IMG/VR virus record: IMGVR_UViG_3300049183_000008
Coordinates: 1 to 28,075 of that record
Origin: a virus
Lineage: Duplodnaviria; Caudoviricetes
Strand: one strand, 5' to 3'
Length of the DNA: 28,075 nt
Shown here: positions 96-19,593 of the stretch, one piece after another
Layout: every line of letters starts with the position of its first letter
How positions within the stretch are numbered: the first letter of the stretch is position 1
Made by a program: the position numbers and the translations under genes
Notes under the pieces: generated by a model
Seen by the model: only the letters and a program-made list of their open reading frames with translations
What the model was told of the DNA's origin: nothing
The model's database searches: none

Positions 96-776
96 ATGGC
101 CGGTAGACCGCCTAAGCCCGTCGAACAGAAGGCACTGACCGGACGTTCTCCGGGCCGGGACTCGGGTGGTCGCCTGTTGCCGGAGACAGTGGTCGAGCTG
201 CCGTCTGCGAGCGGTGTGCCGGAGCCGCCGCCGGACTTGGTCACGTCGACGAGGGCACACCTGTGCTCGTTCCGAACGGTACCCGCCGATAGCGATGATG
301 GCGAGGGCTTGACCGGTCCGGACGCGGCGCGGTGGCGCCCTCCTCCGCCGGAGCGGTGCGCGATTTGCGAGGCGGACATCGCGGTTGCGGTGTGGCGGGA
401 GATGTGGACCCAGGGTGCCGGGTGGCTGTCGGTGCAGCGCGACCGCCGGATTTTGGAGCGGCTGTGCAAGGGCTACGTCGAGGAGGCCCACCTGCGGTCC
501 GCGCTCGACGAGGACGGCCCGTTCGTCAAGGGCCAGCGGGGCGGTCTGGTGGCGCACCCGGCGGTGTCGATGTTGCGGGTGCTGGAGCAGCAGTTGACGA
601 AGTGGGAGGGGCTCTGTGGTTTCAACCCCTCCGACGGCGGCCGGCTCGGCGTCAAGGTCGCCAAGCAGAAGGGGACCTCAACGCTCGAGGACCTCATCCG
701 TAAGCGGGCGGAGTCCCGACAGCGTCGTCCTGCCCAGCGTGCTACCCGAGCGGCGAGGACTCAGGGCAGCGCTTGA
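96..776 (+). CDS. terS: Phage terminase small subunit, P27 family
   Basis: N-term MAGRPPKP..K.L.G, C-term G..GGLVAHPAV...L...GFNPS...RL typical of P27 TerS; GGGAGG RBS at 83-88; directly upstream of TerL. Confidence 0.88.
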   Translation: MAGRPPKPVEQKALTGRSPGRDSGGRLLPETVVELPSASGVPEPPPDLVTSTRAHLCSFRTVPADSDDGEGLTGPDAARWRPPPPERCAICEADIAVAVWREMWTQGAGWLSVQRDRRILERLCKGYVEEAHLRSALDEDGPFVKGQRGGLVAHPAVSMLRVLEQQLTKWEGLCGFNPSDGGRLGVKVAKQKGTSTLEDLIRKRAESRQRRPAQRATRAARTQGSA

Positions 777-2346
777 CATCGGGGACGGCATCCGTCTCCC
801 GAAGGGGTCTCCGTCACGGTTCCCGAAGCAATTGCCGCGGGGGCCGGAGTTGTGGGTGCCGGAGCAGACGTTGTGGACCGAGGACAACACCGACGGGCTG
901 TTCACCTGCGACCTGATCCAGGCGTATCTGCGGTTGACAAAGGGCCCGCAGGCAGGACAGTTGGTGACCCTGCGGATGTGGCAGGGCGACCTGGTCTGCG
1001 ACATGCTCCGCTTGGACGCCGACGGCGAGCGGGCGTACTGGACCTACCTGGTTCTGCTGAGCCGGAAGAACTCGAAGTCGCTGATGGGCGGCGGCCTCGC
1101 GATCGACGGCTTGCTCGACGAACCCGGCGCCGAGGTCTACTCCTGCGCCGCCGACAAGGACCAAGCCAAAATCATCTTCGCCGAGGTCCGTAAGGCGGTC
1201 GAAGCGAGCCCGGATCTGGACGCGAAGCAGGGCGGCCTGTTCAAGGTCTACCGGGATGTCATCGAGTACCCGGCGACGAGCAGTATCTACAAGGCGCTGT
1301 CGGCGGAGGCGTTCACCAAGGAAGGATTGAACCCGTCACGGGTTCTGTTCGACGAGCTGCACGCCCAGCCGAACTGGGAACTGTGGAACGTCATGAACCA
1401 GGGCTCGGACACCCGGTCCAATCCGCTGATCGTGGGGATCTCCACGTTCGGGGTGATGACTGACTCGACCGGTGCGACGTCGGTGTGCAAGGCCCAGCAT
1501 GAGTACGTCGAGAAGCTCATCTCGGGGGAGATCCAAGATCCGCATTTCGGCGCGCGGGTGTACGCGACGAACCCTCGTCGGAGGGGTTTCGACTACCGCG
1601 ATCCGCGCGGTTGGGGGGACGCCAATCCCGCCCTCGGAGACTTCCTGTTCCTGGACAAGATGCAGGCGGCCTGCCGGAAAATGCCGGAGGCGGACTTCAA
1701 GACGAAGCGCCTGAACATCTGGGTGCAGTCGGCAACCCCGTGGCTACCTGACGGTGCGTGGGAGAACTGCAAGGACAAGTCCCGCACGATCGTCGACCAC
1801 TCGCGGGTGGTGTTGTCGTTCGACGGTTCACGGACCGGGGACTGCACCGGGATCACGGTCACGTCGATTGAGGATCGCCCGCAGATCAACGTAGTGGACC
1901 TGTGGGAGAAGCCGTTCGGCGAACTCGGATGGAGGGTGCCTCGGGCCGAGGTAAAGGACGCTCTGCGCGAAGCTTGCCGGCGGTGGGAAGTCGTCGAGAT
2001 CGCATGGGACGAGTACCTGTGGCTTGACGCCGCCGAGGAGCTCGAGGAAGAGGGGCTCCCGATCGTGGTATTCCCGCAGACGATCCAGCGCATGGGACCC
2101 GCCACGCAGCGGTTCTACGAGTTGGTCGTGGATCGGGGGATCTCACACGACGGTGACCCGCGGCTGGCCCGGCACATCGCGAATGCAGTGTTGAAGCGAG
2201 ACGCCCGTGGCGCGCGAATCACAAAGCCCAAGCCGGACAGCCCACTGAAGATCGACCTGGGGGTGTGCGCCGTGATGGGCGTGGATCGTGCGGCTTTCAA
2301 TCTCCGGCTAGCACCACCGGCCCAGTTCTTTGGCGCCTGGCGATAG
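739..2346 (+). CDS. terL: Phage terminase large subunit
   Basis: LRMWQ adenine-binding motif, Walker A variant SRKNSKS, Walker B VLFDELH, nuclease acidic motifs LSFDGSRTGD and KIDLGV; frame open from 616, start uncertain (GTG 739 chosen). Confidence 0.93.
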   Translation: MLPERRGLRAALDIGDGIRLPKGSPSRFPKQLPRGPELWVPEQTLWTEDNTDGLFTCDLIQAYLRLTKGPQAGQLVTLRMWQGDLVCDMLRLDADGERAYWTYLVLLSRKNSKSLMGGGLAIDGLLDEPGAEVYSCAADKDQAKIIFAEVRKAVEASPDLDAKQGGLFKVYRDVIEYPATSSIYKALSAEAFTKEGLNPSRVLFDELHAQPNWELWNVMNQGSDTRSNPLIVGISTFGVMTDSTGATSVCKAQHEYVEKLISGEIQDPHFGARVYATNPRRRGFDYRDPRGWGDANPALGDFLFLDKMQAACRKMPEADFKTKRLNIWVQSATPWLPDGAWENCKDKSRTIVDHSRVVLSFDGSRTGDCTGITVTSIEDRPQINVVDLWEKPFGELGWRVPRAEVKDALREACRRWEVVEIAWDEYLWLDAAEELEEEGLPIVVFPQTIQRMGPATQRFYELVVDRGISHDGDPRLARHIANAVLKRDARGARITKPKPDSPLKIDLGVCAVMGVDRAAFNLRLAPPAQFFGAWR

Positions 2347-2603: not shown

Positions 2604-4142
2604 ATGCGCTCGTGGTTGGTGCCGCGACGGCGCAGCGACGTCAGCCGGACACGCTCGGCATCCACCAATGGCGATGAGTCGCGCTTCGGTATCGACCAGT
2701 GGATCACTGACTACCTGATTCCGAGCCACCAGCAGTACGGCTGGGGGCAACTCGGGCTCACGCAGACGTACGCGGATCAGCGAATCCAGGACATCGCCAC
2801 AACGCTGCCGGCGTACCTGGCCGCCATGAGGGCGTGCCCTCCTGCATTCGGGGCGCAGTTGGTGCGAGCGATGGTGCTGTCGCAGGCCCGGTTCACGCTG
2901 CGCAACCCGCCTTGGCACCCGAAAACTCCGCGGCGCACGTTCGGCACGACCGCACTCGGCCTCCTGGAGAAGCCTTGGCCAAACGCGACCACCGGAGAAC
3001 TGTTGTCGCGAATGGAGTGGCACGCCGGACTCGCCGGCAATGCTTATGTGGTCCGTCGGCCGAACAGACTGCGGGTGTTACGACCGGACTGGGTTGGGGT
3101 TATCTACGGGTCCGAACTGGAGCCCGATGACGCGGCCCACGCGCTCGACGGGGAGATCATCGGCTACGCTTACTGCAACGGCGGATTCTCGGCAAACCGC
3201 AATAAGATACACACACTTTTGCCGTCTGAAGTGGCGCACTGGTCACCGATTCCAGACCCTGAGTCGGCGGGCGTCGGGATGTCTTGGCTGACTCCAGCGA
3301 TTCGTGATATGCAGGCCGATAAGACGGCGACTGAACACAAGCTGAAGTTCTTCACCAACGGCGCAACCCCGAACATGGTCGTGAAGGGCATCCCGGCCGT
3401 TAGCAAAGAGCAGTTCGACGAATTCGTCGATATGATGGAGGAGCGGCACGCAGGAGTCCGCAATGCCTACCGCACCCTGTATTTGACGGCGGGGGCGGAC
3501 GCCACGGTGGTGGGCTCCGACCTGAAGCAGATCGATTTCAAGGCTACGCAGGGTGCCGGCGAGACTCGGCTTAGCGTACTGTCTCGCGTCCCCGCTTCAC
3601 TGCTGGGAATCTCCGAAGGCCTAGCCGGCTCATCGCTCAATGCGGGGAACTTTGGCTCTGCTCGCCGCACATTCTCCGACACGTGGGTGCATCCATCCCT
3701 CCAGGATGTCTCTGCCGCGCTCGCAACCCTGGTCAACGTCCCGAACGATGCCGAACTGTGGTTTGACACCAGTGACATCCCGATCCTCCGTGAGGACGCG
3801 AAGGATGCGGCGGAGATCGAGCAGACGAAGTCCGACACGATCACGCGATATGTGCGTGAGGGGTTCACGTGGGACTCCGCCGTAGCGGCGGTACAAGGAC
3901 AGAACATCGGGCTACTCAGACACTCCGGTCTGATCTCGGTGCAGCTGCAGAAGCCGGGCTCGAACGAACAGAGTGGGGCGGTCCGAAACCTCGTCGACAT
4001 CGTTCAGAAGGTCTATCAGGGCGTCGGCGTTGTTCTGTCGGCCGAGGAGGCCCGCGAACTTTTGAATCAGGCCGGCGCGAATCTGACCGGCCCCGCCCCG
4101 GAACTTCCCACCCCAACTCCGGCACCCGCCATTCAGGAGTGA
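2604..4142 (+). CDS. Phage portal protein (HK97-like)
   Basis: LLEKPWPN, LAGNAYV, LRPDWV, EVAH, GMSWL..A, KFFTNGATP motifs of HK97-family portals; position after terL. Confidence 0.93.
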   Translation: MRSWLVPRRRSDVSRTRSASTNGDESRFGIDQWITDYLIPSHQQYGWGQLGLTQTYADQRIQDIATTLPAYLAAMRACPPAFGAQLVRAMVLSQARFTLRNPPWHPKTPRRTFGTTALGLLEKPWPNATTGELLSRMEWHAGLAGNAYVVRRPNRLRVLRPDWVGVIYGSELEPDDAAHALDGEIIGYAYCNGGFSANRNKIHTLLPSEVAHWSPIPDPESAGVGMSWLTPAIRDMQADKTATEHKLKFFTNGATPNMVVKGIPAVSKEQFDEFVDMMEERHAGVRNAYRTLYLTAGADATVVGSDLKQIDFKATQGAGETRLSVLSRVPASLLGISEGLAGSSLNAGNFGSARRTFSDTWVHPSLQDVSAALATLVNVPNDAELWFDTSDIPILREDAKDAAEIEQTKSDTITRYVREGFTWDSAVAAVQGQNIGLLRHSGLISVQLQKPGSNEQSGAVRNLVDIVQKVYQGVGVVLSAEEARELLNQAGANLTGPAPELPTPTPAPAIQE

Positions 4143-4937: not shown

Positions 4938-6413
4938 ATGCCTGAGATCGACAGCGAGCGGCGGACCTACACCGCCGAGGATCTGAAGGGGCGCACGCCC
5001 GACGAGATCCGCGACATCATCGATGTCACCAAGGCCCACATCCGGGATCTGCACCAGGGCGAGAACGGTGAACTGCGGGAGCTGACCGACCCGGAGAAGA
5101 CCGCGCTCAAGGTGCTGATCGACGTGCACGAGCGCGCCGAGGCCATGTACGAGGAGCACCGCAAGATCAACGATGTGCTGCGCCGGAAGCCCACCGCGAT
5201 CGAGTACTCGCGCCTGGGTGCTGAGCCCGACGACCCGTTCGCCGACTTGCGCCGGCTCACCCCGAAGGAGATCCGGGACCGGGCGCTGCGCCGGCTCGAT
5301 TCCCGTGAGGACGCCTCGCATCTGTCGGACGACGCGAAGGCGTTGGTGGACAAGACGATCCGTCGCAACACGGACGTGGCGCGCCGCATCCTGGTCACCG
5401 AGACCGAGGAGTACCGCAACGCCTACATGAAACTGATGACCCAGCCGGACGCGGCGGCGTTCCTCACCAATGAGGAGCGTGACGCGGTCCGGACGTTCAT
5501 CGAGTACCGCGCGATGTCGGAGAACACCACCACTGCCGGCGGGTTCGGAATTCCGGTGTTCATCGACCCCAGCATCATCCTCACCGCGCAGGAGTCGGGG
5601 AACCCGTTCCTGGAGATCGCACGGCAGGTCGACGTGAACACCAACCAATGGAAGGGTGTGTCGTCCGCTGGTGTGACGTGGGCGTTCCAAACGGAGGCAG
5701 CCACAGCCACGGACAATTCGCCGACCCTGGCGCAGCCGACCGTGCTGACTCACATGGCCCGCGGCACGATCCCGTTCTCGATCGAGGTCGGGCAGGATTA
5801 CCCCCAGTTCGCAACCGAAATGTCCACGCTGCTCGCCGAGGGCTACGACGAACTGCTCGTGCAGAAGTTCACGATCGGCTCCGGCACTGGTGAGCCGAAG
5901 GGCATCCTGACCGCCCTGTCGGCGAATACCAACGTCCGGGTGCGGGTGCAGACCGCAGGTTCGAACTTCGGCCCGCTTGACCCGTACGCGGCATGGAAGG
6001 CCCTTCCGAAGAAGTTCCGTCGGGCCCGTGCGGCGTGGCTCATGTCGGTCGGCGTGAACAACGCCATCCGCCAGCTGGGCACCGCCAACGTGTACCACGC
6101 CACCACGATCAGCCTCCCGGAGGAGTGGCTGGACGAGATGTTCAACCGGCGCGTCTACGAGTCGCCGTACATGCCCGATGTCACCACGTCCACCACGAAC
6201 ACCGACGGGCTGGCGATTGTCGGGGACTTCCAGAACTTCGTGATCGCCCGCCGTGGTGGCATGTCGACGGAGTTCATCCCGAACCTGGTGCAGCAGGTGA
6301 CCGCCGGGTCCGGCCCGGCCCTCCCGACTGGGCAGCGCGCGTGGTTCGCCTACGCCCGCATTGGCAGCAACAGCGTGAACGACCTGGCCTTCAGGGTTCT
6401 CGTCAACACGTGA
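4938..6413 (+). CDS. Major capsid protein, HK97 fold with N-terminal delta/scaffold domain
   Basis: Charged helical N-term ~195 aa, then AMS..TTAGGFGIP, GSGTGEPKGIL, AWLMS, IVGDFQNFVIARRGG; AGGAG RBS. Confidence 0.95.
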   Translation: MPEIDSERRTYTAEDLKGRTPDEIRDIIDVTKAHIRDLHQGENGELRELTDPEKTALKVLIDVHERAEAMYEEHRKINDVLRRKPTAIEYSRLGAEPDDPFADLRRLTPKEIRDRALRRLDSREDASHLSDDAKALVDKTIRRNTDVARRILVTETEEYRNAYMKLMTQPDAAAFLTNEERDAVRTFIEYRAMSENTTTAGGFGIPVFIDPSIILTAQESGNPFLEIARQVDVNTNQWKGVSSAGVTWAFQTEAATATDNSPTLAQPTVLTHMARGTIPFSIEVGQDYPQFATEMSTLLAEGYDELLVQKFTIGSGTGEPKGILTALSANTNVRVRVQTAGSNFGPLDPYAAWKALPKKFRRARAAWLMSVGVNNAIRQLGTANVYHATTISLPEEWLDEMFNRRVYESPYMPDVTTSTTNTDGLAIVGDFQNFVIARRGGMSTEFIPNLVQQVTAGSGPALPTGQRAWFAYARIGSNSVNDLAFRVLVNT

Positions 6414-6514: not shown

Positions 6515-6724
6515 ATGCCCGAACAGAAGCCCGCCGCGAAGGCCGCCGAGCCGAAGGCGGCACCTGCCCCGGCGAAGCCGGACCTGATCCCGGCTGGCTC
6601 GGCAACCGACCCAGCGGTGCATCAGTTGCTCGCGGAGTTGGAGACGGCTCGAGCCAACGGTGCCGACGACGACGTTCAGGATCTAATCGGCTATCTGGCT
6701 GACCTGGGTTACAGCGCTGGCTGA
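6515..6724 (+). CDS. Small head-associated hypothetical protein (69 aa, Ala/Pro/Lys-rich N-term)
   Basis: GAGGAG RBS, ATG 6515 (MPEQKPAAKAAEPK...), follows MCP. Confidence 0.75.
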   Translation: MPEQKPAAKAAEPKAAPAPAKPDLIPAGSATDPAVHQLLAELETARANGADDDVQDLIGYLADLGYSAG

Positions 6725-6747
6725 AGCTCGCAGACCACCCGACAACT

Positions 6748-6783
6748 CGAGGCCCCAGGGATCTGATTGCCCAGGGGGTTTCG
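6748..6783 (+). terminator. Imperfect GC hairpin, possible terminator/processing site
   Basis: CGAGGCCCC-A-GGG...CCC-AG-GGGGTTTCG intergenic stem with G-U pairs. Confidence 0.45.
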
Positions 6784-6804
6784 CCATGCAAGGAGTTCAT
6801 CGAC

Positions 6805-6975
6805 ATGGCTGTAACGGTTACTAGGGACGACGGCACCGTGGTTGAGTACGAAAACGGCAACAACTTCGAGATCGACCGTGAAAGCCATGGTCATCTGATT
6901 GTCTTGGGGGAAGTCGGTTCGCTGGCCATCTACGCCCCCGGACGCTGGTGCTGCGCCGAGGTTGAGACCTCATGA
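6805..6975 (+). CDS. Hypothetical 56-aa beta-rich protein (absent from ORF track)
   Basis: AAGGAG RBS at 6790-6795; MAVTVTRDDGTVVEYENGNNFEIDRESHGHLIVLGEVGSLAIYAPGRWCCAEVETS; ATGA overlap with next gene. Confidence 0.75.
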   Translation: MAVTVTRDDGTVVEYENGNNFEIDRESHGHLIVLGEVGSLAIYAPGRWCCAEVETS

Positions 6976-7232
6976 TTGAGCACGTCTTCGCAGCGGCTGA
7001 CTTTCCAGCCGAGACCCCTGCCGGTGCACGGGTGATGGTGCGGAAGGGCTCACACTGGCCGGCGGATGACCCGCTGGTGCGGAAGTACCCGGCGAACTTC
7101 TCAACGGACCCGCGGTTCGGGTTGCAGTACACCCGTGAACCGACCGGGTGGGACGAGCCCCCGGTGGAGCAGGCCACGGCTGCGCCCGGCGAGCGCCGAC
7201 AGGTTCGGCGCCGCGATCACGGCACGGACTGA
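6972..7232 (+). CDS. Small actinophage virion-associated protein with VEQATAAPGERR motif
   Basis: WPADDPLVRKYP..F and C-terminal VEQATAAPGE.R motif, recalled from small post-capsid genes of actinophages. Confidence 0.75.
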   Translation: MIEHVFAAADFPAETPAGARVMVRKGSHWPADDPLVRKYPANFSTDPRFGLQYTREPTGWDEPPVEQATAAPGERRQVRRRDHGTD

Positions 7233-7235
7233 TCT

Positions 7236-7320
7236 CCTGCGGCCGGCCGCATTGTCGGATGGTCGGCTGGCCGCAGGGCTTTCTCACCATCCGACGAACC
7301 ATCCGACATATCTTAAGGAG
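7236..7320 (+). promoter_or_regulatory. Structured RNA leader (hairpin plus loop-complementary tandem repeat) before glycosyltransferase RBS
   Basis: 14-bp stem 7236-7249/7264-7277; loop GTCGGATGGT complementary to ACCATCCGAC at 7286-7295 and 7298-7307; TAAGGAG RBS 7314-7320. Confidence 0.6.
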
Positions 7321-7325
7321 ATTCG

Positions 7326-8942
7326 TTGTCCGACAACGACGAAACGAAAGCGCGGACGCCCGTTGCTCTCGTAGCCAGCGGCATGAGTCCACAGGAAGCG
7401 GCCACCTTGATTACCGACGGCGACAAGGACGAGTGGGACCCCGTCGACGCGGTGACCGTGGCCTACGTCAACCACAACGAGGTTGCCTACTCGTGGCACC
7501 ACAGCATGGTCGAGCTGATCGGCTACGACCTCACCAGCAAGGGCCGCATCATGCAGGGCGGCTACATCGCCTACCGCTATGGAACGGACGGTCTCGTCGA
7601 CGCCAGAAACAAGGCGGTGGAGCAGTTCCTGCAGGAGCGGGACGCGCAGTGGCTGTTCTGGATCGACACCGACATGGGCTTCACCGCGGACACCGTGGAC
7701 CGTCTCGTCGCGGCGGCTGACCCAGTGAAGCGGCCGATCATCGGAGGCTTGTGCTTCACGCAGCGGGAAACCAACGAGGACGGTCTGGGTGGATGGAGGA
7801 CGGCCGCCGCACCCACGATCTTCGACTGGGTGAAGGAAGGCGATCAGCAAGGGTTCGCGATCCGCTGGGACTACCCGGCTGACACGGTGGTGCCATGTGC
7901 CGGCACCGGCTCGGCGTGCATCCTCATTCACCGTTCGGTGTTTGAGAGGATGTTCGAGAAGTATGGCCGGTCGTGGTATGACAAGGCGTTCAACGCCAGC
8001 ATGAAGCAGGAGACCTCTGAGGACCTCAGCTTCTGCATGCGCGCCATCGCGATCGGCATTCCGGTGCATGTCCACACCGGAGTGAAGACGTCACACCAGA
8101 AAACGGTGTGGCTGTCCGAGAATGAGTACCGCGCGCAGCGGCCCCCCGTGCCGGCCACCGAAGAGGTCGCCGTCATCGTCCCGGTGATGCGACGCCCGCA
8201 GAACGCGGCCCCGTTCATGCGCTCTCTGCGCGCCTCGACGGGTTTGGCCACTGCATTCGCCATCGCCGACGCCGACGACTCGGAGACGATCGCGGCTTGG
8301 AGACTCGCTGGCGCGACCGTGCTGACCATGGACCTGGACAGCCCCGGTACGTTCGCGCAGAAGATTAACTACGGCTACGAGTGCATGGCACACCCGACCA
8401 GGTTGCTGACACTCCCGGCAATACCTCAAGACCAGGCCGACGAGTTCGTCGAGAGATTCGGTGGTGCATCAGATGCCTACCGCACCATCTATCTCTCTAC
8501 AACAACTGCGGCACCTCCGCCATGGCTGCTCGTCGTCGGTGACGATGTCCGGTTCCACCCCGGCTGGCTGGACCAAGCACAGGCCGTCGCAGGTGATCGC
8601 CTGCATGTGATCGGCACCAACGACCTCTCGAACCCGCGGGTCACATCTGGACAACACGCCACCCACGTTCTGATTCGGCGGTCCTACGTGGACGACGTCG
8701 GGGCATCGTGGGACGGCCCCAAGGTGGTCGCGCACGAGGGCTACAGGCACTGGTATGTGGACGATGAGATCGTGACCGCCGCCAAGCAGCGCGGCGTGTG
8801 GGCAATGGCCATCAACTCTCACGTCGAGCACCTGCACCCCGCGTGGGGCAAGGGAGCCCACGACGAGGTGTACGAGCTGGGGATGTCATTCGCTGAGCAG
8901 GACAAGGCCACGTTCGAGGCTCGCCTCAAGGAGAACTCGTGA
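7326..8942 (+). CDS. Two-domain GT-A (GT2-like) glycosyltransferase
   Basis: Domain 1: WLFWIDTDMGF (DxD), GTGSACILIHRSVFE, SEDLSFC; domain 2: VAVIVPVMRRP, LVVGDDVRF, HWYVDDE, VEHLHP; TTG start with TAAGGAG. Confidence 0.9.
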   Translation: MSDNDETKARTPVALVASGMSPQEAATLITDGDKDEWDPVDAVTVAYVNHNEVAYSWHHSMVELIGYDLTSKGRIMQGGYIAYRYGTDGLVDARNKAVEQFLQERDAQWLFWIDTDMGFTADTVDRLVAAADPVKRPIIGGLCFTQRETNEDGLGGWRTAAAPTIFDWVKEGDQQGFAIRWDYPADTVVPCAGTGSACILIHRSVFERMFEKYGRSWYDKAFNASMKQETSEDLSFCMRAIAIGIPVHVHTGVKTSHQKTVWLSENEYRAQRPPVPATEEVAVIVPVMRRPQNAAPFMRSLRASTGLATAFAIADADDSETIAAWRLAGATVLTMDLDSPGTFAQKINYGYECMAHPTRLLTLPAIPQDQADEFVERFGGASDAYRTIYLSTTTAAPPPWLLVVGDDVRFHPGWLDQAQAVAGDRLHVIGTNDLSNPRVTSGQHATHVLIRRSYVDDVGASWDGPKVVAHEGYRHWYVDDEIVTAAKQRGVWAMAINSHVEHLHPAWGKGAHDEVYELGMSFAEQDKATFEARLKENS

Positions 8943-9754
8943 AGCGCGTCGCGATCACAGGCGGCGGCGGCTTCATCGGCCGGTCAGTGACTCGGGAACT
9001 GGAGCGACGCGGCTTCATCGCCGTTTCGCTGGACCTGCCGGACCACGACGTCCGCACCTTCGACCCGCTGACGTTCGGCAACATGGACCTGCATGCAGTG
9101 ATCCACATGGCCGGCGTTCTGGGCACACACGAGCTATTCGACACCATCGATCTCGCCATCGACTCGAACGTTCGCGGCGCCGCGCGAGTCCTGGAAGCGG
9201 CCAAGGTGTGGGGGGCGCCGTACGTCGGCATCACGTTGCCCGCCGTGTTCCCGTCGGTCTACACCGCAACGAAGCTGGCGGCCGTCGGCCTGGAGCGGGC
9301 GTTCCACCACACCTACGGTCTGCCGGTGTCGAGGGTGCGGGCGTTTAATGCCTACGGCCCTGGCCAGAAGCATGGACCCGGCCATCCGCAGAAGATCGTC
9401 CCCACGTTCGCGACCGAAGCATGGGCCAATCGCCCGATTCCGATCTGGGGCGACGGGGAGCAGACCGTGGACCTGGTCCACGCCGACGATCTGGGCCGGA
9501 TGCTGGTCGACGCGCTTAACTATGGCGACGACGCCACGTTCGACGGCGGCACCGGCAAGGCCCTGACCGTGAACGAGGTGGCCGACTTCGTCCTAGACGT
9601 CACCGGCTCCACGGCGGGCAAAAAGCATTTGCCAATGCGGCGCGGGGAGCTTCCCACCCAGATCGTGGCCACGGGCGAGGGTTGGGACCGGTTGTCCTGG
9701 CGGCCCGAACTCGACCTGGACCGACTTGCCGAGACGGTCAGGAGCTACCGGTGA
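8939..9754 (+). CDS. NAD-dependent nucleotide-sugar epimerase/dehydratase (extended SDR)
   Basis: ITGGGGFIG Rossmann motif, VIHMAG, YTATK catalytic YxxxK, RAFNAYGPGQ, IWGDGEQTVDLVH; GTGA overlap. Confidence 0.92.
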   Translation: MKRVAITGGGGFIGRSVTRELERRGFIAVSLDLPDHDVRTFDPLTFGNMDLHAVIHMAGVLGTHELFDTIDLAIDSNVRGAARVLEAAKVWGAPYVGITLPAVFPSVYTATKLAAVGLERAFHHTYGLPVSRVRAFNAYGPGQKHGPGHPQKIVPTFATEAWANRPIPIWGDGEQTVDLVHADDLGRMLVDALNYGDDATFDGGTGKALTVNEVADFVLDVTGSTAGKKHLPMRRGELPTQIVATGEGWDRLSWRPELDLDRLAETVRSYR

Positions 9755-10389
9755 TCGCCGTGGTGAGTAGCGTCTACGGCGGGTACGACGCTCCCGTTCC
9801 TCCAGTGCCTCAGGACGTCGAGTGTGACTGGATTCTCGTATCGGATCGGGATTACGACTGCCACCCGTGGAAGGTGATCATCGAACCTCGGCCGCAGTTG
9901 CATCCGCGACTGGCAGCGAAGGTGGCCAAGTGCCGACCGGATCTGTATGCGGATGCCGACGTCGTCGTCTGGGTCGACGCCAGCATCCACATCACTTCGC
10001 CGTCATTCGTGTCGTGGTGCGTAGCCGGGCTCGGCGATGGAGAAGTTGCGCAGTTGCCTCACCCGATTCGGCGCCGCCTCAGCGACGAGGCCGCCGAGTC
10101 GCATGGGATGGCGAAATATGACGGCCTGCCGGTCTTCGCGCAGGTCGATGCGTACCTGTCCGCTGGCCATCCTGATGACTGGGGGCTGTGGGCCACGGGC
10201 CTCATCGTCTACAGGGGCCGTTCGCGGTTCGGGGACGCGTGGCTGCGTGAGCAGATGCGCTGGACATACCAGGATCAGCTCAGCGAAGCCCCGGTCCTGT
10301 ATGGCTATGGCATCCGGCCGGTGGACTTGGCCGGTGGCCTGTTCAACCATCCGATGTTCACCGTCCGAGGTCACCGGGACCACCTATGA
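9751..10389 (+). CDS. DUF616/TOD1-MUCI70-like glycosyltransferase
   Basis: VVSSVYGGYD, AK..K..P, VWVDAS, HP.R, DQLS motifs; GTG 9751 in GTGA overlap with AGGAG RBS. Confidence 0.78.
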   Translation: MIAVVSSVYGGYDAPVPPVPQDVECDWILVSDRDYDCHPWKVIIEPRPQLHPRLAAKVAKCRPDLYADADVVVWVDASIHITSPSFVSWCVAGLGDGEVAQLPHPIRRRLSDEAAESHGMAKYDGLPVFAQVDAYLSAGHPDDWGLWATGLIVYRGRSRFGDAWLREQMRWTYQDQLSEAPVLYGYGIRPVDLAGGLFNHPMFTVRGHRDHL

Positions 10390-10964
10390 AGGTCGACTAC
10401 AGCAGGGAACTGTTCGCCGAATATCAGGGCCGCTGCGGCGTTTGGTCAGATATCGTCGATCACTTGCCGACCCTGCACGCGACGGTCATGCGCTACGCCG
10501 AACCAGCGGTGATCGAGCTCGGCGTGCGGTCAGGCAACTCGACGGCAGCATTCCTTGCCGCCGCGAGCCAAGTTGACGGTCATGTGTGGAGTGTGGACAT
10601 CCAATTGCCGCAGGCCCCTGGCTGGTGGTGGGAAACCAAACTGTGGACCCCGATCGTCGGCAATGACCTCGACCCTGCCGTACTGGCGCGATTGCCGGAG
10701 CAGTGCGACGTACTTTTCATCGACACAAGTCACGCCTATGACCACACCTTACGGGAGCTCCGCACCTATGCGCCGATGGTGAGGCCCGGTGGCGTGGTGT
10801 TGTGCCATGACACGGAGCTCGAAGCTCCGGAACTGGTTGGCCCACAGCCGCCATTCCCCGTCGCGAAGGCGATCAGCGAGTACTGCACTGAGGCCGGGTT
10901 GGAATGGGTTAACAACACCGGCTGCTATGGCCTAGGAGTCATCGCGATCCCGGGAGCTGCGTGA
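10386..10964 (+). CDS. Class I SAM-dependent methyltransferase (Methyltransf_24-like, probable sugar O-methyltransferase)
   Basis: VIELGVRSGNST, WSVD, DVLFIDTSHAY, RPGGVVLCHDT; ATGA overlap. Confidence 0.9.
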   Translation: MKVDYSRELFAEYQGRCGVWSDIVDHLPTLHATVMRYAEPAVIELGVRSGNSTAAFLAAASQVDGHVWSVDIQLPQAPGWWWETKLWTPIVGNDLDPAVLARLPEQCDVLFIDTSHAYDHTLRELRTYAPMVRPGGVVLCHDTELEAPELVGPQPPFPVAKAISEYCTEAGLEWVNNTGCYGLGVIAIPGAA

Positions 10965-11572
10965 TGGCGCTCGGCGAAGTTTATGTCGATGAGGCAGACC
11001 TTAAGGAGCGCCTGAAGATAGAAGATGACGCCGACGCTGTTCGGCTGAACGGAGCGGTTCTGGCGGCGAGTCGCGGAATCGAGAAGTTCTGCTTCCGGCA
11101 GTTCAACGACGCTGGCGCCGTGTCGGCTCGGGTGTACCGGCCGGACTCGCACTGCAAGGTTCGGGTTGATGACTTCAGCACGACGACGGGCCTTGTGGTC
11201 AAGACCGATGACGACAACGATGGCGTGTTCGAAACGACGTGGTCCACGTCGGACTACGAGTGCGAACCATTGAATGGCATTGTTGATGGAGAGCCCGGCT
11301 GGCCGTTCTGGAGGATCAAGGCGGTCGACAACCGGATATTTCCTTGTTACCGGCGAGCCACCATTCAGATCACAGCGCGATGGGGATGGTCAGCTGTTCC
11401 GACGCCGGTGTCCGAGGCCTGTCGGATCGTCGCAGAGGAGATCTTCAAGCTCCGTGACACCCCGTTCGGCATTGGCGGCTACGGCGACTTTGGTGTGATC
11501 AGAGTGCGGGACAACCCGTTTGCCGCGCGCATGCTCAAGGACTACAAGCGCGACGCGCTGCTGGGGGCGTGA
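10961..11572 (+). CDS. Head-to-tail adaptor (gp6/gp15-like)
   Basis: YV...DLKERL.I.D..D...L...ASR.IE.FC.R.F; C-term WGWSAVP..V.EAC; L..YKR end; start GTG 10961 or ATG 10964. Confidence 0.85.
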   Translation: MMALGEVYVDEADLKERLKIEDDADAVRLNGAVLAASRGIEKFCFRQFNDAGAVSARVYRPDSHCKVRVDDFSTTTGLVVKTDDDNDGVFETTWSTSDYECEPLNGIVDGEPGWPFWRIKAVDNRIFPCYRRATIQITARWGWSAVPTPVSEACRIVAEEIFKLRDTPFGIGGYGDFGVIRVRDNPFAARMLKDYKRDALLGA

Positions 11573-11573
11573 T

Positions 11574-11981
11574 ATGGCCACCATCGACCAGATACGCGCT
11601 GCCATCAGGACCCGACTGAAGACCATCTCGGACCTCCGTGTTCCCGACAGGGTTCCAGACACGATCGATCCGGACGCCGCAGTTGTCCGATACGCGGGAA
11701 CCACGTTCGACACGACCATGTCCCGTGGGTCCGATGACCAGACTTACATCATCCAGGTGTTCACGTCGAAGGCATCCGACCGCGGCCAGGACGCCCTCTA
11801 TGAGTATTGCGAAGGATCGGGCGACCGTTCGGTCAAGGTCGCGGTCGAGGCCGATCCGACACTGGGCGACCTGGTTATGCATGCCGACGTGACCGAAGTC
11901 AGAGAACCGGGGACAGCCGCACCGGGTAGCGTCGACATGTATTCAGTGGAGATCGTCGTCATGGTTTGTGTCCAGCCGTGA
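11574..11981 (+). CDS. Tail terminator / head-tail completion protein
   Basis: 135 aa, MATIDQIRAAI, SVK.AVEADPTLG motif; position between adaptor and tail tube; ATG 11574. Confidence 0.7.
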   Translation: MATIDQIRAAIRTRLKTISDLRVPDRVPDTIDPDAAVVRYAGTTFDTTMSRGSDDQTYIIQVFTSKASDRGQDALYEYCEGSGDRSVKVAVEADPTLGDLVMHADVTEVREPGTAAPGSVDMYSVEIVVMVCVQP

Positions 11982-13009
11982 GATTCCTGGCGGCGCACCC
12001 GGGCCCCTCGTTCAGCGTTCATGACGTATACGTAGGTTGGGTGGAAGCCCTCCGCGACCTTGGTCAGCAGGTGTTCGAGTTCAACCTGTCCGACCGGCTC
12101 ACCTTCTACGACAGCGTGATGGTCGAGATCGGCAACGGGGAACCGCGAAAGGCGTTGGCGCCAGCGCAAGCACATGAGCTCGCGGTCAATGGGCTGTATG
12201 CCGCGCTGTATAAGACTCGACCTGATGTTCTACTGGCGGTGTCCGGGTTCTTCTACCAAGCGGACCTGCTCGAGTTGGCCCGCTCGTATGGGACCCGAGT
12301 GGTGTTGCTCCACACCGAAAGTCCCTACGAGGACGACCGCCAGTTGGAGATCGCCGCGCACGCCGACCTGAACCTCATCAACGACCCCACGAACATCGAT
12401 ACGTTCCGAACGGTCGCCCCCACGGTGTACGTACCTCACAGCTATCGGCCATCCATCCACCATCCCGGCACGGCCGACCCGAAACTGTCGGCGGACCTGG
12501 CGTTCGTCGGCACCGGTTACGCCTCCCGAGTCGATTTTCTTGAGGCGATGGATCTCGGCGGCTTGGACGTGCTGCTAGCCGGTAACTGGCAGCAACTCGC
12601 AGACGATTCGCCGCTGCGGAAGTTCGTCGCGCACGAACCCGACGAGTGCCTCGACAACGAGCAGACCATCGAGGTGTACCGCTCCGCCAAGATCGGGATG
12701 AACCTCTACCGGCGAGAGGCACAGGCCGCCCACTTGGCAGCGGGCTGGGCTATGGGGCCACGCGAACTGGAGATGGCCGCATGTGGCCTGTTCTTCCTGC
12801 GCGACCCGCGGCCGGAGGGCGACGAGCTGCTGCCGATGCTCCCGACGTTCGCCGGTCCGGGAGATGCCTCGGAGCAACTCCGGTACTGGCTGGCTCACCC
12901 AGACAAACGCCACGAGTTGGCGCGTCGAGCCCGCGAAGCCGTTGCCGATCAGACATTCACCAACCGAGCGGCCGAACTCCTCGCCCTGCTCAACAACAAG
13001 GAGATCTGA
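11978..13009 (+). CDS. CgeB-like GT-B glycosyltransferase (Glyco_trans_1_2 C-terminal domain)
   Basis: TESPYED, DLAFVGTGYASR, YRSAKIGMNLYR, GPRELEMAACG, TF.NRA..LL; GTG 11978 in GTGA overlap. Confidence 0.88.
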   Translation: MRFLAAHPGPSFSVHDVYVGWVEALRDLGQQVFEFNLSDRLTFYDSVMVEIGNGEPRKALAPAQAHELAVNGLYAALYKTRPDVLLAVSGFFYQADLLELARSYGTRVVLLHTESPYEDDRQLEIAAHADLNLINDPTNIDTFRTVAPTVYVPHSYRPSIHHPGTADPKLSADLAFVGTGYASRVDFLEAMDLGGLDVLLAGNWQQLADDSPLRKFVAHEPDECLDNEQTIEVYRSAKIGMNLYRREAQAAHLAAGWAMGPRELEMAACGLFFLRDPRPEGDELLPMLPTFAGPGDASEQLRYWLAHPDKRHELARRAREAVADQTFTNRAAELLALLNNKEI

Positions 13010-16872: not shown

Positions 16873-19593
16873 ATGGCGCTTGGGTTCCCTAGGGACGAGT
16901 TCCTTGAGATGTACTTCCCTGGTCTCGGCTGGGCGGACCTCACCACGCGGCTACGTCAGACCGATCCGGTCACAGTTACACGGGGACGCGGCGGTGAGCA
17001 GGGCGACGTAGCCCCGACCACGTTCTCAGCGACGTTGAAGAACCAGGACGGCAACATGTCGCCCGGGAACGTCGCCGGCCCCTACTACGGCCTACTGGGG
17101 CGCAACACCCCCGTTCAATGGGGCTTCGGGGTCGTGCGGGACACATTCACTCGGACTGTGGTGGACGGACTGGGTTCCGCCACGACGGGCGAGCCGTGGA
17201 CGCTGGACGGGACTGCGGCGAACTTCGACGTGAACGGCTCGGCCGCCACAATCCTGGTGCCGACCGCTAACGCCACCAGGCACGCATATCTGACCTACCT
17301 TGAGCCGTTCGCGGACTACGAAGTCACCGTGGACGTCACCATTCCATACCCGAACGGCGCCTCGAACAGTGGCGGGGTAATTTTTCGCGGCACCACTACC
17401 TCGAACTTCTGCCGACTCAGCCTTACGGTGAGCGACACCGGGCTCGTGACGCTGAACATGGCCAACAGCGGCGGGTCCACCGTCGACGACGTGATCACCG
17501 TGGACACCACCTCGGCCGGCACCTATCGAGTCCGCGCATTGGTCGAGGGGCAGACGGTTCGGGGTAAGGCATGGCGGGTCGCGGACCCGGTTCCGTTGGC
17601 GTGGCAGGTTGAAGGCAACTTCGGCAGCGGCATGCTCACCGCTGGGTGGGCCGGTATCCGCGCTCGCTCGGGTACCGGGTCGTCAAACGTCACCATCACG
17701 GTGGACAACTTCACGGTGCGCCTCATCCGGTTCTCGGGAGAGGTCACCAGCCTCGAACCGAAATGGAGCGAAGGGCACAAGGTTAAGTGGGCCGAACTGG
17801 TCGCCTCGGGCGTCACGCAACGTTTAGGCCAGGGGAAGACGACGCTCAAGTCGGCGCTGCGCCGCTACATCACAAAAGTGTGGCCATTCGAACCGCTAGC
17901 ATACTGGGCTTTGGACGATAAGCAGAACGCCGAGGCGGGGCGCCTTACTGCGGGGGCAGGACAGGACGCGCAGTACGCGAATGGATTCGAAAACCTGAGC
18001 CCAGCGCGAGTGTGTGGAAAAGGTGATCTTGGCGTATGGAACGGCTCAGCCGCCTCATTCCAAGCGCCGACCAGTGTGTTCCAGTTGTTTCCTCAACTGG
18101 TCGAAGGACCAGCCTCGTCCGGCTGGACGTCTCATTGCGCTGCTTCCTTCGACGGAGTGACCGTTGACGGAGCCAACAACTATGAAGACTTCGGCGTAAC
18201 GTCCGCGAGTGGCTTCTGGGCCGCCAAGCTCGACTCGTCCTCGGGAACTGTTGAACTTAGCCGTCCTAACGGTGGGACGGCCACCGCATCGGCGGGATCT
18301 ATGTTTGACGGACGGCCACATCTGCTTAGCCTGACTGTGGCTCAGAGCGGCGCCGACTGTATCGGATCATTCTATCTAGACGGCAACTTGGTCACCAGCA
18401 TCACGCAAACTTCGCTAACAAACACCTATCCATCGTCGATCTTCTTCAACGTTATCGGCGTGGAGGCGCGACGGCGATCACCAGGGCACGTGATTCTGTA
18501 TGCTGGCAGTGGCCCGGCGCACGCCGACCTGTATGCCGCACTCCTCGGCTGGCCTGGCGAGACAGCGGGCAATCGCATCCAACGACTGTGCGAAGAAGAG
18601 GGAGTGCCGTTCGATTACCTGGGAACCCTGAACTCGACCGCTCCCATGGGCCCGCAATACGCGGACGACACCTTCCTTGAGGTCATCCGCGAATGCGCGA
18701 AGACCGACCAGGGCTCGCTGTTCGAGCAGCGCAGCCTTGCCGGACTCGGATACCGGCCGCTTGAGAGCACCCAGAATCAAACCGCCATTGCCTCCCTGGA
18801 CTATGTCGCCAAGCAACTCGCTCCAGGCCTGCGACCTTCGACTGATGACCGGCCGACACGGAATCTCATCACTGCCAAGCGCCGAGACGGAGGTGAGTTC
18901 GTCGCTGAGCAGACTGCTGGGCCCATGAACACCGCCGACCCAGGCAGCATCGAAGGGGCGGTGGGCGTGATCGACGACGACCTTGACGTGAATCCGGAAA
19001 ACGATGCCGCCCTCCAGGACATCGCGTGGCGCGCTGTGTCGTTTGGCACTGTCCCGGACGATCGATACCGGCAGGTCACGGTGAACCTGCGTTCCGCCGG
19101 GGTGGCGAACTCCACCGCGCTCACCGCAGCGCTACTCACCCTGGACACTGACGACCGGTTCCAACTAACCAACATGCAGGCGATCGACGTGCACGACCCG
19201 GTGGACCAGATCGCCCGCGGCTACACCGAAAGCTGCCCCGACTCCCGGCAGCACACGATCACCTTCAACACCGCGCCGTACACCCCTTATCGGGTGTTCG
19301 TGCTCGATACCGATCGGCTCGACTCCGACACGGCATCTCTCGCGGCGAACGTGGCCGCTGGACAGGCGCTGCCCTACACGATCTCGGTTGCCGACAGCGC
19401 CGTGCTGTGGACGACCGCAGCGGGGGACTTCCCCCTGGACATCGTGATCGCCGGGCAGCGGTTGACGATCAGCGGCATCTCGGGCGCCAGCTCCCCGCAG
19501 ACCTTCACCGTCTCGGCACGGGCCAACGGGGTGGACAAGGCGCAGGTGGCTGGCGCAAAGGTGTCACTGGCGGACTCAACGGTATTAGGCTAG
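16873..19593 (+). CDS. Large minor tail/tail-tip protein with lectin-like (LamG-like) insert
   Basis: 906 aa after TMP; W.DLT..L...VTVTRGR, L.N.DG..SP, RFSGEV, PLAYWALDD, FDGRPH...YLDG, GETAG.RI.RLC.E. Confidence 0.82.
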   Translation: MALGFPRDEFLEMYFPGLGWADLTTRLRQTDPVTVTRGRGGEQGDVAPTTFSATLKNQDGNMSPGNVAGPYYGLLGRNTPVQWGFGVVRDTFTRTVVDGLGSATTGEPWTLDGTAANFDVNGSAATILVPTANATRHAYLTYLEPFADYEVTVDVTIPYPNGASNSGGVIFRGTTTSNFCRLSLTVSDTGLVTLNMANSGGSTVDDVITVDTTSAGTYRVRALVEGQTVRGKAWRVADPVPLAWQVEGNFGSGMLTAGWAGIRARSGTGSSNVTITVDNFTVRLIRFSGEVTSLEPKWSEGHKVKWAELVASGVTQRLGQGKTTLKSALRRYITKVWPFEPLAYWALDDKQNAEAGRLTAGAGQDAQYANGFENLSPARVCGKGDLGVWNGSAASFQAPTSVFQLFPQLVEGPASSGWTSHCAASFDGVTVDGANNYEDFGVTSASGFWAAKLDSSSGTVELSRPNGGTATASAGSMFDGRPHLLSLTVAQSGADCIGSFYLDGNLVTSITQTSLTNTYPSSIFFNVIGVEARRRSPGHVILYAGSGPAHADLYAALLGWPGETAGNRIQRLCEEEGVPFDYLGTLNSTAPMGPQYADDTFLEVIRECAKTDQGSLFEQRSLAGLGYRPLESTQNQTAIASLDYVAKQLAPGLRPSTDDRPTRNLITAKRRDGGEFVAEQTAGPMNTADPGSIEGAVGVIDDDLDVNPENDAALQDIAWRAVSFGTVPDDRYRQVTVNLRSAGVANSTALTAALLTLDTDDRFQLTNMQAIDVHDPVDQIARGYTESCPDSRQHTITFNTAPYTPYRVFVLDTDRLDSDTASLAANVAAGQALPYTISVADSAVLWTTAAGDFPLDIVIAGQRLTISGISGASSPQTFTVSARANGVDKAQVAGAKVSLADSTVLG

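What the first reader, a model, noticed from the sequence alone, without database searches (positions are those of the whole stretch)
8382..8520. Diverged copy of the phage's own portal segment inserted in-frame in the glycosyltransferase
Seen: GT domain 2 has ~40 extra residues between FAQKINYGY and PWLLVVGDD, motifs normally only a few residues apart in GT-A folds. The insert LPAIPQDQADEFV----ERFGGASDAYRTIYLS (8412-8498) aligns to portal IPAVSKEQFDEFVDMMEERHAGVRNAYRTLYLT (3390-3488) with 16/29 identities. DNA shares ATGCCTACCGCACC exactly (8473-8486 vs 3463-3476) and CGACGARTTCGTCGA. The insert uses A/T-ending codons unlike its flanks. By analogy to HK97-type portals this segment is the exposed clip helix-strand contacting terminase/adaptor. 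Inference: a captured portal piece acting as a docking or mimic tag that targets or times the GT on the prohead, or a tolerated illegitimate-recombination relic.
Basis: partly seen in the sequence, partly recalled or inferred. Interest (0 to 1): 0.85.

Follow-up and report, generated by a model that had tools for sequence, protein, structure and literature searches.

The report
Phage enzyme carrying captured portal piece
A soil phage's sugar-transferring enzyme carries a decaying copy of the docking tip of the phage's own DNA-entry (portal) protein, copied once and passed on among relatives; it is most likely a tolerated passenger, but it could act as a decoy for bacterial defences that recognise that tip.

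Summary
A tandem GT-A glycosyltransferase (7326-8942) of an uncultured soil phage, probably actinobacterial, has 49 residues where 100 of 120 homologues have 7. A 37-codon core (8388-8498) is a copy of the phage's own portal clip (3363-3488): 18/37 residues, 71/111 bases, best of 126 portal clips. It is not private: 7 of 120 homologue clusters carry it, all sharing Phe271-to-Ala and a shortened loop, so one capture followed by reshuffling and probably three losses. The inserts diverge fast (21-71% identity; rest of enzyme 70-93%), stay helix-friendly, and do not track their own phages' portals (0 of 4 non-discovery pairs in a fixed register). The window's copy has lost 4 of 9 invariant clip residues. 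New: the copied piece begins at portal Ala254|Thr255, the site where three related portals carry a homing-endonuclease intein, which suggests how it was captured. Best reading: a real captured clip kept as a tolerated helical passenger (0.55). Rivals: docking tag (0.15), decoy for clip-sensing defences (0.13), new acceptor-binding loop (0.12). No binding test was possible.

The parts
7326..8942 (+). Tandem two-domain GT-A glycosyltransferase that carries the insert (alternative start 7383)
   Evidence: ORF; weak Pfam GT2; PHROG glycosyltransferase families; AlphaFold pLDDT 92; Foldseek best hits are tandem GT-A enzymes such as COLGALT1 and K4CP
8379..8519 (+). In-frame insert, 47 codons, between the helix and the strand that precedes the GDD motif of domain 2
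   Evidence: low confidence in the model except one helix
8388..8498 (+). Portal-derived core of the insert, 37 codons, aligned to portal residues 254-295 with gaps of 1 and 4 codons
   Evidence: 71/111 bases, 18/37 residues, 13/18 identical codons; best of 126 distinct portal clips
8473..8486 (+). 14-base exact match to portal 3463-3476
   Evidence: blastn self-comparison
2604..4142 (+). HK97-type portal gene, the donor
   Evidence: Pfam PF04860 E 1.3e-28; closest solved portal Mycofy1 9LW9
3363..3488 (+). Portal clip strand-helix-strand (residues 254-295), the copied segment
3365..3366 (+). Empty intein insertion site Ala254|Thr255; the insert's likeness to the portal begins one codon before it
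   Evidence: three distinct Hint+LAGLIDADG inteins at this site in related portals
4938..6413 (+). Major capsid protein, a likely acceptor of the glycosylation module (inference)
   Evidence: Pfam PF05065; upstream of the GT in most loci
8939..9754 (+). NAD-dependent epimerase/dehydratase, sugar module
   Evidence: Pfam PF01370
9748..10389 (+). Second glycosyltransferase (start approximate)
   Evidence: phrog_26101 E 8.8e-7
10386..10964 (+). Methyltransferase, sugar module
   Evidence: Pfam PF13578
10961..11572 (+). Head-tail adaptor, natural partner of the portal clip
   Evidence: phrog_442 E 1e-14
11966..13009 (+). Third glycosyltransferase (Glyco_trans_1_2)
   Evidence: Pfam PF13524

Best explanation
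About 140 bases of the portal gene, the whole clip subdomain, were copied once, in frame, into an insertion-tolerant surface loop of the second GT-A domain of a virion glycosyltransferase. The donor was a portal of this phage's own lineage (shown by sequence). The piece starts at the portal's intein homing site, so a homing-endonuclease cut followed by misplaced repair is a likely trigger (inferred, about 0.35 on its own). The clip's two ends lie close together, so the enzyme tolerates it (inferred). It then spread and was reshuffled with its flank among related head modules and was lost from some (shown by trees, direction inferred). Today it is a passenger: selection keeps the frame and a helix-friendly loop, not the portal's binding surface (inferred from rates and lost residues).
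For: Copy: 13/18 identical codons vs 8.3 expected, p 0.008-0.017 by codon usage; 71 bases vs 58.7 +/- 5.0 in 125 other clips; follows the window's portal over its 84% sister 15:5, p 0.02. One origin: Phe271, invariant in 121/121 portals, is Ala in 7/7 inserts; all are shorter between helix and strand; a tree of the flanks groups the 7 with 3 insertless proteins at 93/85. Passenger: identity among inserts 21-71% vs 70-93% outside; dN 0.40 against the portal and 1.0 against the L001 insert vs 0.23 in flanks; hydrophobic pattern and lack of proline not beyond a neutral model (p 0.19-0.46 and 0.10-0.15 at matched identity); amphipathic moment not significant; other homologues carry unrelated 11-24 residue loops at this site (5 of 120). 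Intein site: 4 of 251 portal ORFs have a large insertion, all at 254|255, one in the window's own 8-member portal clade.
Against: Helix propensity of the 11-residue helix is better than neutral in all six model settings (p < 0.001). Length stays within 49-55 residues. Some pairs differ more in the insert than neutral drift seems to allow (P0004/P0006: 39% vs 93%), though no DNA was available to measure it and allele swapping explains it too. The window's copy stays much closer to the portal than the other six (18 vs 6-10 of 37), which needs unequal rates or later re-copying. The intein-site coincidence is partly explained by structure, since the clip begins there. Only two inserts were seen as DNA.
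Confidence: 0.55

Rival explanations
1. Docking tag: the insert imitates a clip and binds the adaptor's C-terminal hook, the terminase or a portal subunit, placing or timing the enzyme on the head.
For: It is the whole clip; clips bind the adaptor hook and neighbouring clips (PMC7296036, PMC11445458, passages); the adaptor gene lies 2.4 kb downstream inside the sugar module; all 5 paired carriers have portals from one 23-member clade; Phe274, found in at most 2 of 121 portals, is shared by the window's portal and insert.
Against: No tracking of own portal: P0003 8 vs 10, P0006 7 vs 10, P0012 5 vs 6, P0019 4 vs 8 identities to own vs window portal. Invariant Val259, Phe271, His282 and Asn287 are changed. 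The adaptor binds a groove between two clips of the ring, which one loop cannot form. 113 of 120 homologues work without it.
Confidence: 0.15
2. Immune decoy: a single, non-clustering clip displayed on an abundant late enzyme soaks up host sensors that recognise portal clips (SpbK-like, Avs4-like); the fast change of sequence reflects an arms race.
For: The clip helix is the docking site of SpbK, which needs the 12-fold ring to switch on, and the clip is part of what Avs4 binds (PMC12847820, passages). Streptomyces Avs4 proteins respond to portals (10.1101/2025.11.14.688446, passages). The helix is the part kept; inserts vary far more than their flanks and are swapped between alleles.
Against: No direct evidence; host and sensor unknown. 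Avs4 is activated by portal monomers, so a good mimic might trigger it. A decoy should resemble the phage's own clip, and four of five do not. No free-standing or second clip copy in 104 loci plus the window, and no hit among 1.84 billion proteins.
Confidence: 0.13
3. Co-opted loop: after capture the piece became a new part of the enzyme (acceptor binding, dimer contact or partner enzyme contact) unrelated to portal biology.
For: Seven of seven share Cys, Pro and the derived Ala, and the helix is more helix-friendly than the portal's own (0.37 vs 0.47).
Against: AlphaFold does not pack it on the enzyme (pLDDT 50-77 over the insert), although only 7 of 119 rows inform it; by GT-A topology (recalled) the loop faces away from the active site; lost in 3 of 10 close relatives.
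Confidence: 0.12
4. Chance or convergence: an unrelated helical loop happens to resemble the portal.
For: Blind-search E 0.5; total base identity is only modestly above what the residues predict (p 0.02-0.09); three of the seven inserts score weakly or not at all on the clip profile (P0010 p 0.14, P0012 p 0.14; P0004 p 0.02); the alignment was chosen on this pair.
Against: 0 of 5000 shuffles come near; best of 121 proteins and of 126 DNA clips; the five inserts of the other clade, aligned without the window's, fall on the same portal segment (E 0.05); ends fit a structural subdomain.
Confidence: 0.05

Closest known systems
Clip domain of HK97-type portals (RcGTA 6TE8, HK97 8CEZ, Mycofy1 9LW9, JBD30)
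   Same: Sequence origin, strand-helix-strand layout, boundaries at the end of the first stem helix.
   Different: Sits alone in an enzyme loop, no stem or ring, 4 of 9 invariant residues changed, 3-5 residues shorter.
Actinobacteriophage virion glycosylation modules (Che8, as cited in PMC11256854; the primary paper was not held)
   Same: Several glycosyltransferases in a phage, proposed to glycosylate capsid proteins.
   Different: This GT family has no close relative in cultured phages (2 weak matches in 50,697 records), lies among head genes, and its acceptor is untested. No portal-derived insert is mentioned in the passages seen.
Portal inteins with LAGLIDADG homing endonucleases (PMC5050341; 10.1101/2025.01.02.630785)
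   Same: Portals are known intein hosts, and homing cuts the empty site; three such inteins occur at 254|255 in this family.
   Different: The insert has no intein or nuclease; it is extein DNA that starts at the homing site and has landed in another gene.
Phage genome mosaicism by illegitimate recombination (own knowledge)
   Same: Short non-homologous joins that survive when the frame and fold are kept.
   Different: The donor is the same genome's portal, the piece is one subdomain, and it persists in at least 7 lineages.
Phage decoy or sponge anti-defence proteins (listing only) and the clip sensors SpbK and Avs4
   Same: The piece is the epitope that such sensors bind.
   Different: No decoy made of a portal fragment appeared in those searches, and none is shown here.

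Membership tests
Portal clip domain (HK97 type) | Sequence descent from the clip | tested here: met
Portal clip domain (HK97 type) | Helix flanked by strands | tested here: inconclusive
   Helix predicted, strands not, low confidence; helix propensity kept
Portal clip domain (HK97 type) | Invariant residues of the family's clip retained | tested here: not met
   5 of 9 kept; Val259, Phe271, His282, Asn287 changed
Portal clip domain (HK97 type) | Part of a 12-fold ring that binds terminase and adaptor | not tested
Co-evolving docking tag for the phage's own portal | Each insert resembles its own phage's portal best | tested here: not met
   0 of 4 non-discovery pairs in a fixed register; 1 of 4 with free alignment
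Intein or intein remnant | Hint domain, terminal His-Asn, homing endonuclease | tested here: not met
   No Pfam family on the insert; it matches C-extein sequence
Diversity-generating retroelement variable repeat | Differences confined to template adenines; reverse transcriptase nearby | tested here: not met
   Differences fall on all four bases in the codon alignment; no reverse transcriptase among 25 window proteins scanned; the record is about 49% complete
Anti-defence decoy | Binds a host sensor and lowers its activation | not testable with these tools
   Needs an experiment
GT-A (GT2-like) glycosyltransferase | GT-A fold, twice | tested here: met
Virion protein glycosyltransferase | Glycosylates capsid or tail proteins | not testable with these tools
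   Gene order only

The most novel reading that the evidence does not exclude
A homing-endonuclease cut in the portal gene launched the portal's clip, the epitope seen by portal-sensing defences, into an abundant late enzyme, where it was kept as a single, fast-changing decoy: a phage anti-defence device built from the phage's own immune trigger and carried as a loop of a glycosyltransferase.
Probability: 0.13. Interest if true: 0.88.

Novelty: new variant of a known kind. Interest (0 to 1): 0.58.

Why it matters
It is a clean, traceable case of a structural subdomain moving between two genes of one phage genome, with donor, breakpoint, descendants and losses all visible. If the breakpoint at the intein site is causal, homing endonucleases shuffle extein pieces into unrelated genes, which gives a testable source of new phage protein domains. 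The piece is the clip, which adaptor, terminase and two kinds of host sensor all bind, so seven natural variants offer a ready panel to ask whether a lone clip binds or blocks any of them. If it proves to be only a passenger, it is a good evolutionary anecdote and no new system.

Tried and rejected
Cognate tracking: with free local alignment P0003's insert ranked its paired portal joint first of 121 (score 48), but in the register fixed by the insert alignment it drops to 8 identities against 10 for the window's portal, so I rejected it. Pairing of P0003, P0006 and P0012 with portals rests only on equal source and contig length, supported by similar tree shapes; P0004 and P0010 could not be paired. 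Three independent captures: the whole-protein tree needs 3 changes and rejects one clade (AU p 5.5e-6; 45 of 120 proteins used), but flank and C-terminal trees (25 proteins) force only 1 change on starred branches, so mosaic N-terminal halves explain it. More carriers: pattern scans found only L001 in viral contigs and none in metagenome or genome contigs; locus searches gave 2 long inserts among 87 distinct second domains; a region search returned only the window's protein; the insert profile found 0 hits among 1.84 billion representatives; no portal family hit for any of 7 inserts in PHROGs. Neutral simulation is crude (hand-set tree, no indels). Complex prediction of the GT domain with the adaptor was not available, so binding is untested. 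No RNA holder listed. A read-length contig of another study matches 8493-8643 exactly but has only 27 bases in the insert, so it is not counted as bridging. Earlier scan notes: nothing. PMC13419713 held only 1,865 characters with no hits; PMC10527164 was not held.

Full report
Setting. The window is a whole IMG/VR virus record, linear, about 49% complete. It runs terminase small and large, HK97-type portal (2604-4142), protease, capsid, then a sugar module mixed with head-tail genes: the GT in question (7326-8942), an epimerase, a second GT, a methyltransferase, adaptor, tail terminator and a third GT. The closest cultured portals are about 43% identical and come mostly from Gordonia, Mycobacterium and Rhodococcus phages (67 of 70 records); the GT has only 2 weak matches in 50,697 phage records. 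The run that holds all sampled words is a soil metagenome and may be the source. An actinobacterial host is inferred. The GT folds as two GT-A domains (pLDDT 92; best structural matches COLGALT1, LH3, K4CP). It follows the capsid gene in most related loci, so virion glycosylation is the likely job, by analogy with Che8 as cited in PMC11256854 (passages; the primary paper was not held).

The observation. The insert is real: 49 residues where 100 of the 120 best homologues have 7. It aligns to the portal with score 78; 0 of 5000 shuffles exceed 53. In codons, 8388-8498 matches 3363-3488 at 71 of 111 bases and 18 of 37 residues; 13 of the 18 identical residues use the same codon against 8.3 expected (p 0.008-0.017), while total base identity is only modestly above expectation (p 0.02-0.09). 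Against 126 distinct portal clips the window's own is best (71 bases; others 58.7 +/- 5.0, next 68), and where it differs from its three nearest relatives with DNA the insert follows it 15:5, 17:5 and 17:7. The alignment was built on this pair, which favours it somewhat; only 4 of 13 rare states of the window's portal are shared. GC3 falls to 0.60 from 0.85. One Logan contig covers the stretch with no differences (possibly the same sample).

What was copied. In the portal model the first stem helix ends at 253, followed by strand 258-261, helix 268-281, strand 291-294 and the second stem helix from 312. A clip joins the two stem helices and has three strands and one helix (PMC12847820, passages). 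The copy therefore covers the clip from its first residue. The adaptor's C-terminal hook binds the clip helix in RcGTA (PMC7296036, passages) and wedges between two clips in JBD30 (PMC11445458, passages). In the GT the piece sits between a helix and the strand before the GDD motif; only its helix is predicted with fair confidence. Five other homologues have unrelated loops of 11-24 residues there, so the site tolerates insertions.

Relatives. Seven of 120 clusters carry a 49-55 residue insert at this site. They are 21-71% identical to each other against 70-93% for the rest of the enzyme. Five of them, aligned without the window's or P0003's, fall on the same portal segment (E 0.05); on a clip profile P0001, P0003, P0019, P0006 and P0004 beat shuffles (p <0.001, <0.001, 0.004, 0.016, 0.022) and P0010 and P0012 do not. 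All seven have Ala where 121 of 121 portals have Phe271, and all are shorter between helix and strand: one origin. The whole-protein tree rejects one clade, but the flank tree groups the seven with insertless P0002, P0014 and P0015 (93/85), and the 35 residues before the insert make the window, P0003 and P0002 mutual best matches. P0002 keeps both ends of the insert without its middle. One gain, exchange of N-terminal halves and about three losses is the simplest history; the trees cannot separate loss from never having had it.

Does it track the own portal? With free alignment one of four ranked its portal first; in a fixed register none did, and all four are closer to the window's portal than to their own. 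So the donor was of the window's lineage, and the copies have not co-evolved with their carriers' portals. The window's copy keeps 5 of 9 invariant clip residues.

Selection. dN is 0.40 against the portal and about 1.0 against the L001 insert, versus 0.23 in the flanks. A neutral codon simulation reproduces the hydrophobic pattern and the proline-free helix and the amphipathic moment, but not the helix propensity (p <0.001 in 6 of 6 settings). The simulation uses a hand-set tree and no indels. I read this as weak selection for a well-behaved helix and little for sequence.

A likely route of capture. Of 251 portal ORFs, 4 have a large insertion, three distinct inteins with Hint and LAGLIDADG domains, all between Ala254 and Thr255. 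They lie at three places on the portal tree, one inside the window's 8-member clade. The insert's likeness to the portal starts at the Ala254 codon, and P0003 compared with P0002 puts the join just before Thr255. Homing endonucleases cut the empty site and portals are known intein hosts (10.1101/2025.01.02.630785 and PMC5050341, passages). A cut at this site with misplaced repair would give exactly this piece. It is an inference: the clip also starts here, and only a piece with close ends would be tolerated. I give it about 0.35.

Mechanism and rivals. Shown: copy, donor lineage, boundaries, spread, fast change, kept helix. Inferred: tolerated passenger (0.55). A docking tag (0.15) is weakened by the lack of tracking and by the two-clip groove that the adaptor needs. 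A decoy (0.13) is the boldest reading: SpbK docks on the clip helix and needs the ring to activate, Avs4 binds stem, clip and wing of a monomer, and Streptomyces Avs4 responds to portals (10.1101/2025.11.14.688446, passages); but nothing here shows binding, and no second or free clip copy turned up. A co-opted enzyme loop (0.12) and chance (0.05) make up the rest.

Novelty. Four literature searches aimed at such an insert or decoy (listings and abstract starts only, open-licence PubMed Central and bioRxiv) showed no description of it; subscription journals and supplements were not seen, and phage annotation tables in supplements could mention it. I file it as a new variant of a known kind, intragenomic domain capture, with interest 0.58.

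Noticed in passing
P0145; L044:2190-4778 (near copy L087); L130:2450-5083: Portal inteins with LAGLIDADG endonuclease, all at Ala254|Thr255, beginning with Pro; class 3 by recalled motifs, not tested.
   Followed up: partly
L040:814-3303: Portal ORF continuing into a topoisomerase IB domain (Pfam E 3e-14).
   Followed up: no
L025:1-1932: Portal ORF continuing into an ADP-ribosyltransferase-like domain (Pfam PF03496, E 1e-4, below cut-off).
   Followed up: no
L113, L138, L143, L154 (around the GT match): The two-domain GT is followed by a second, single-domain copy of its N-terminal GT; L143's GT also has a roughly 240-residue insertion near its C-terminus.
   Followed up: no
window 616-2346 and loci: The terminase large subunit is swapped freely among phages that share this portal, capsid and GT; L001, with a 78% portal, shows no match to it.
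   Followed up: no
L001:183-764 and 6628-7290: Two ORFs that look like free-standing HNH or endonuclease VII nucleases (by recalled motifs) flank the head genes of the other insert-bearing phage.
   Followed up: no
P0008, P0009, P0011, P0016, P0017, P0018: A different, shared insertion of about 10 residues just before the helix that precedes the insert site.
   Followed up: no
window 8939-13009: Epimerase, two more glycosyltransferases and a methyltransferase are interleaved with adaptor and tail-terminator genes; the family has no cultured representative.
   Followed up: partly
window 16873-19593: A 47-codon stretch with GC3 down to 0.51 in the 906-residue tail protein, lower than the insert's minimum.
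   Followed up: no
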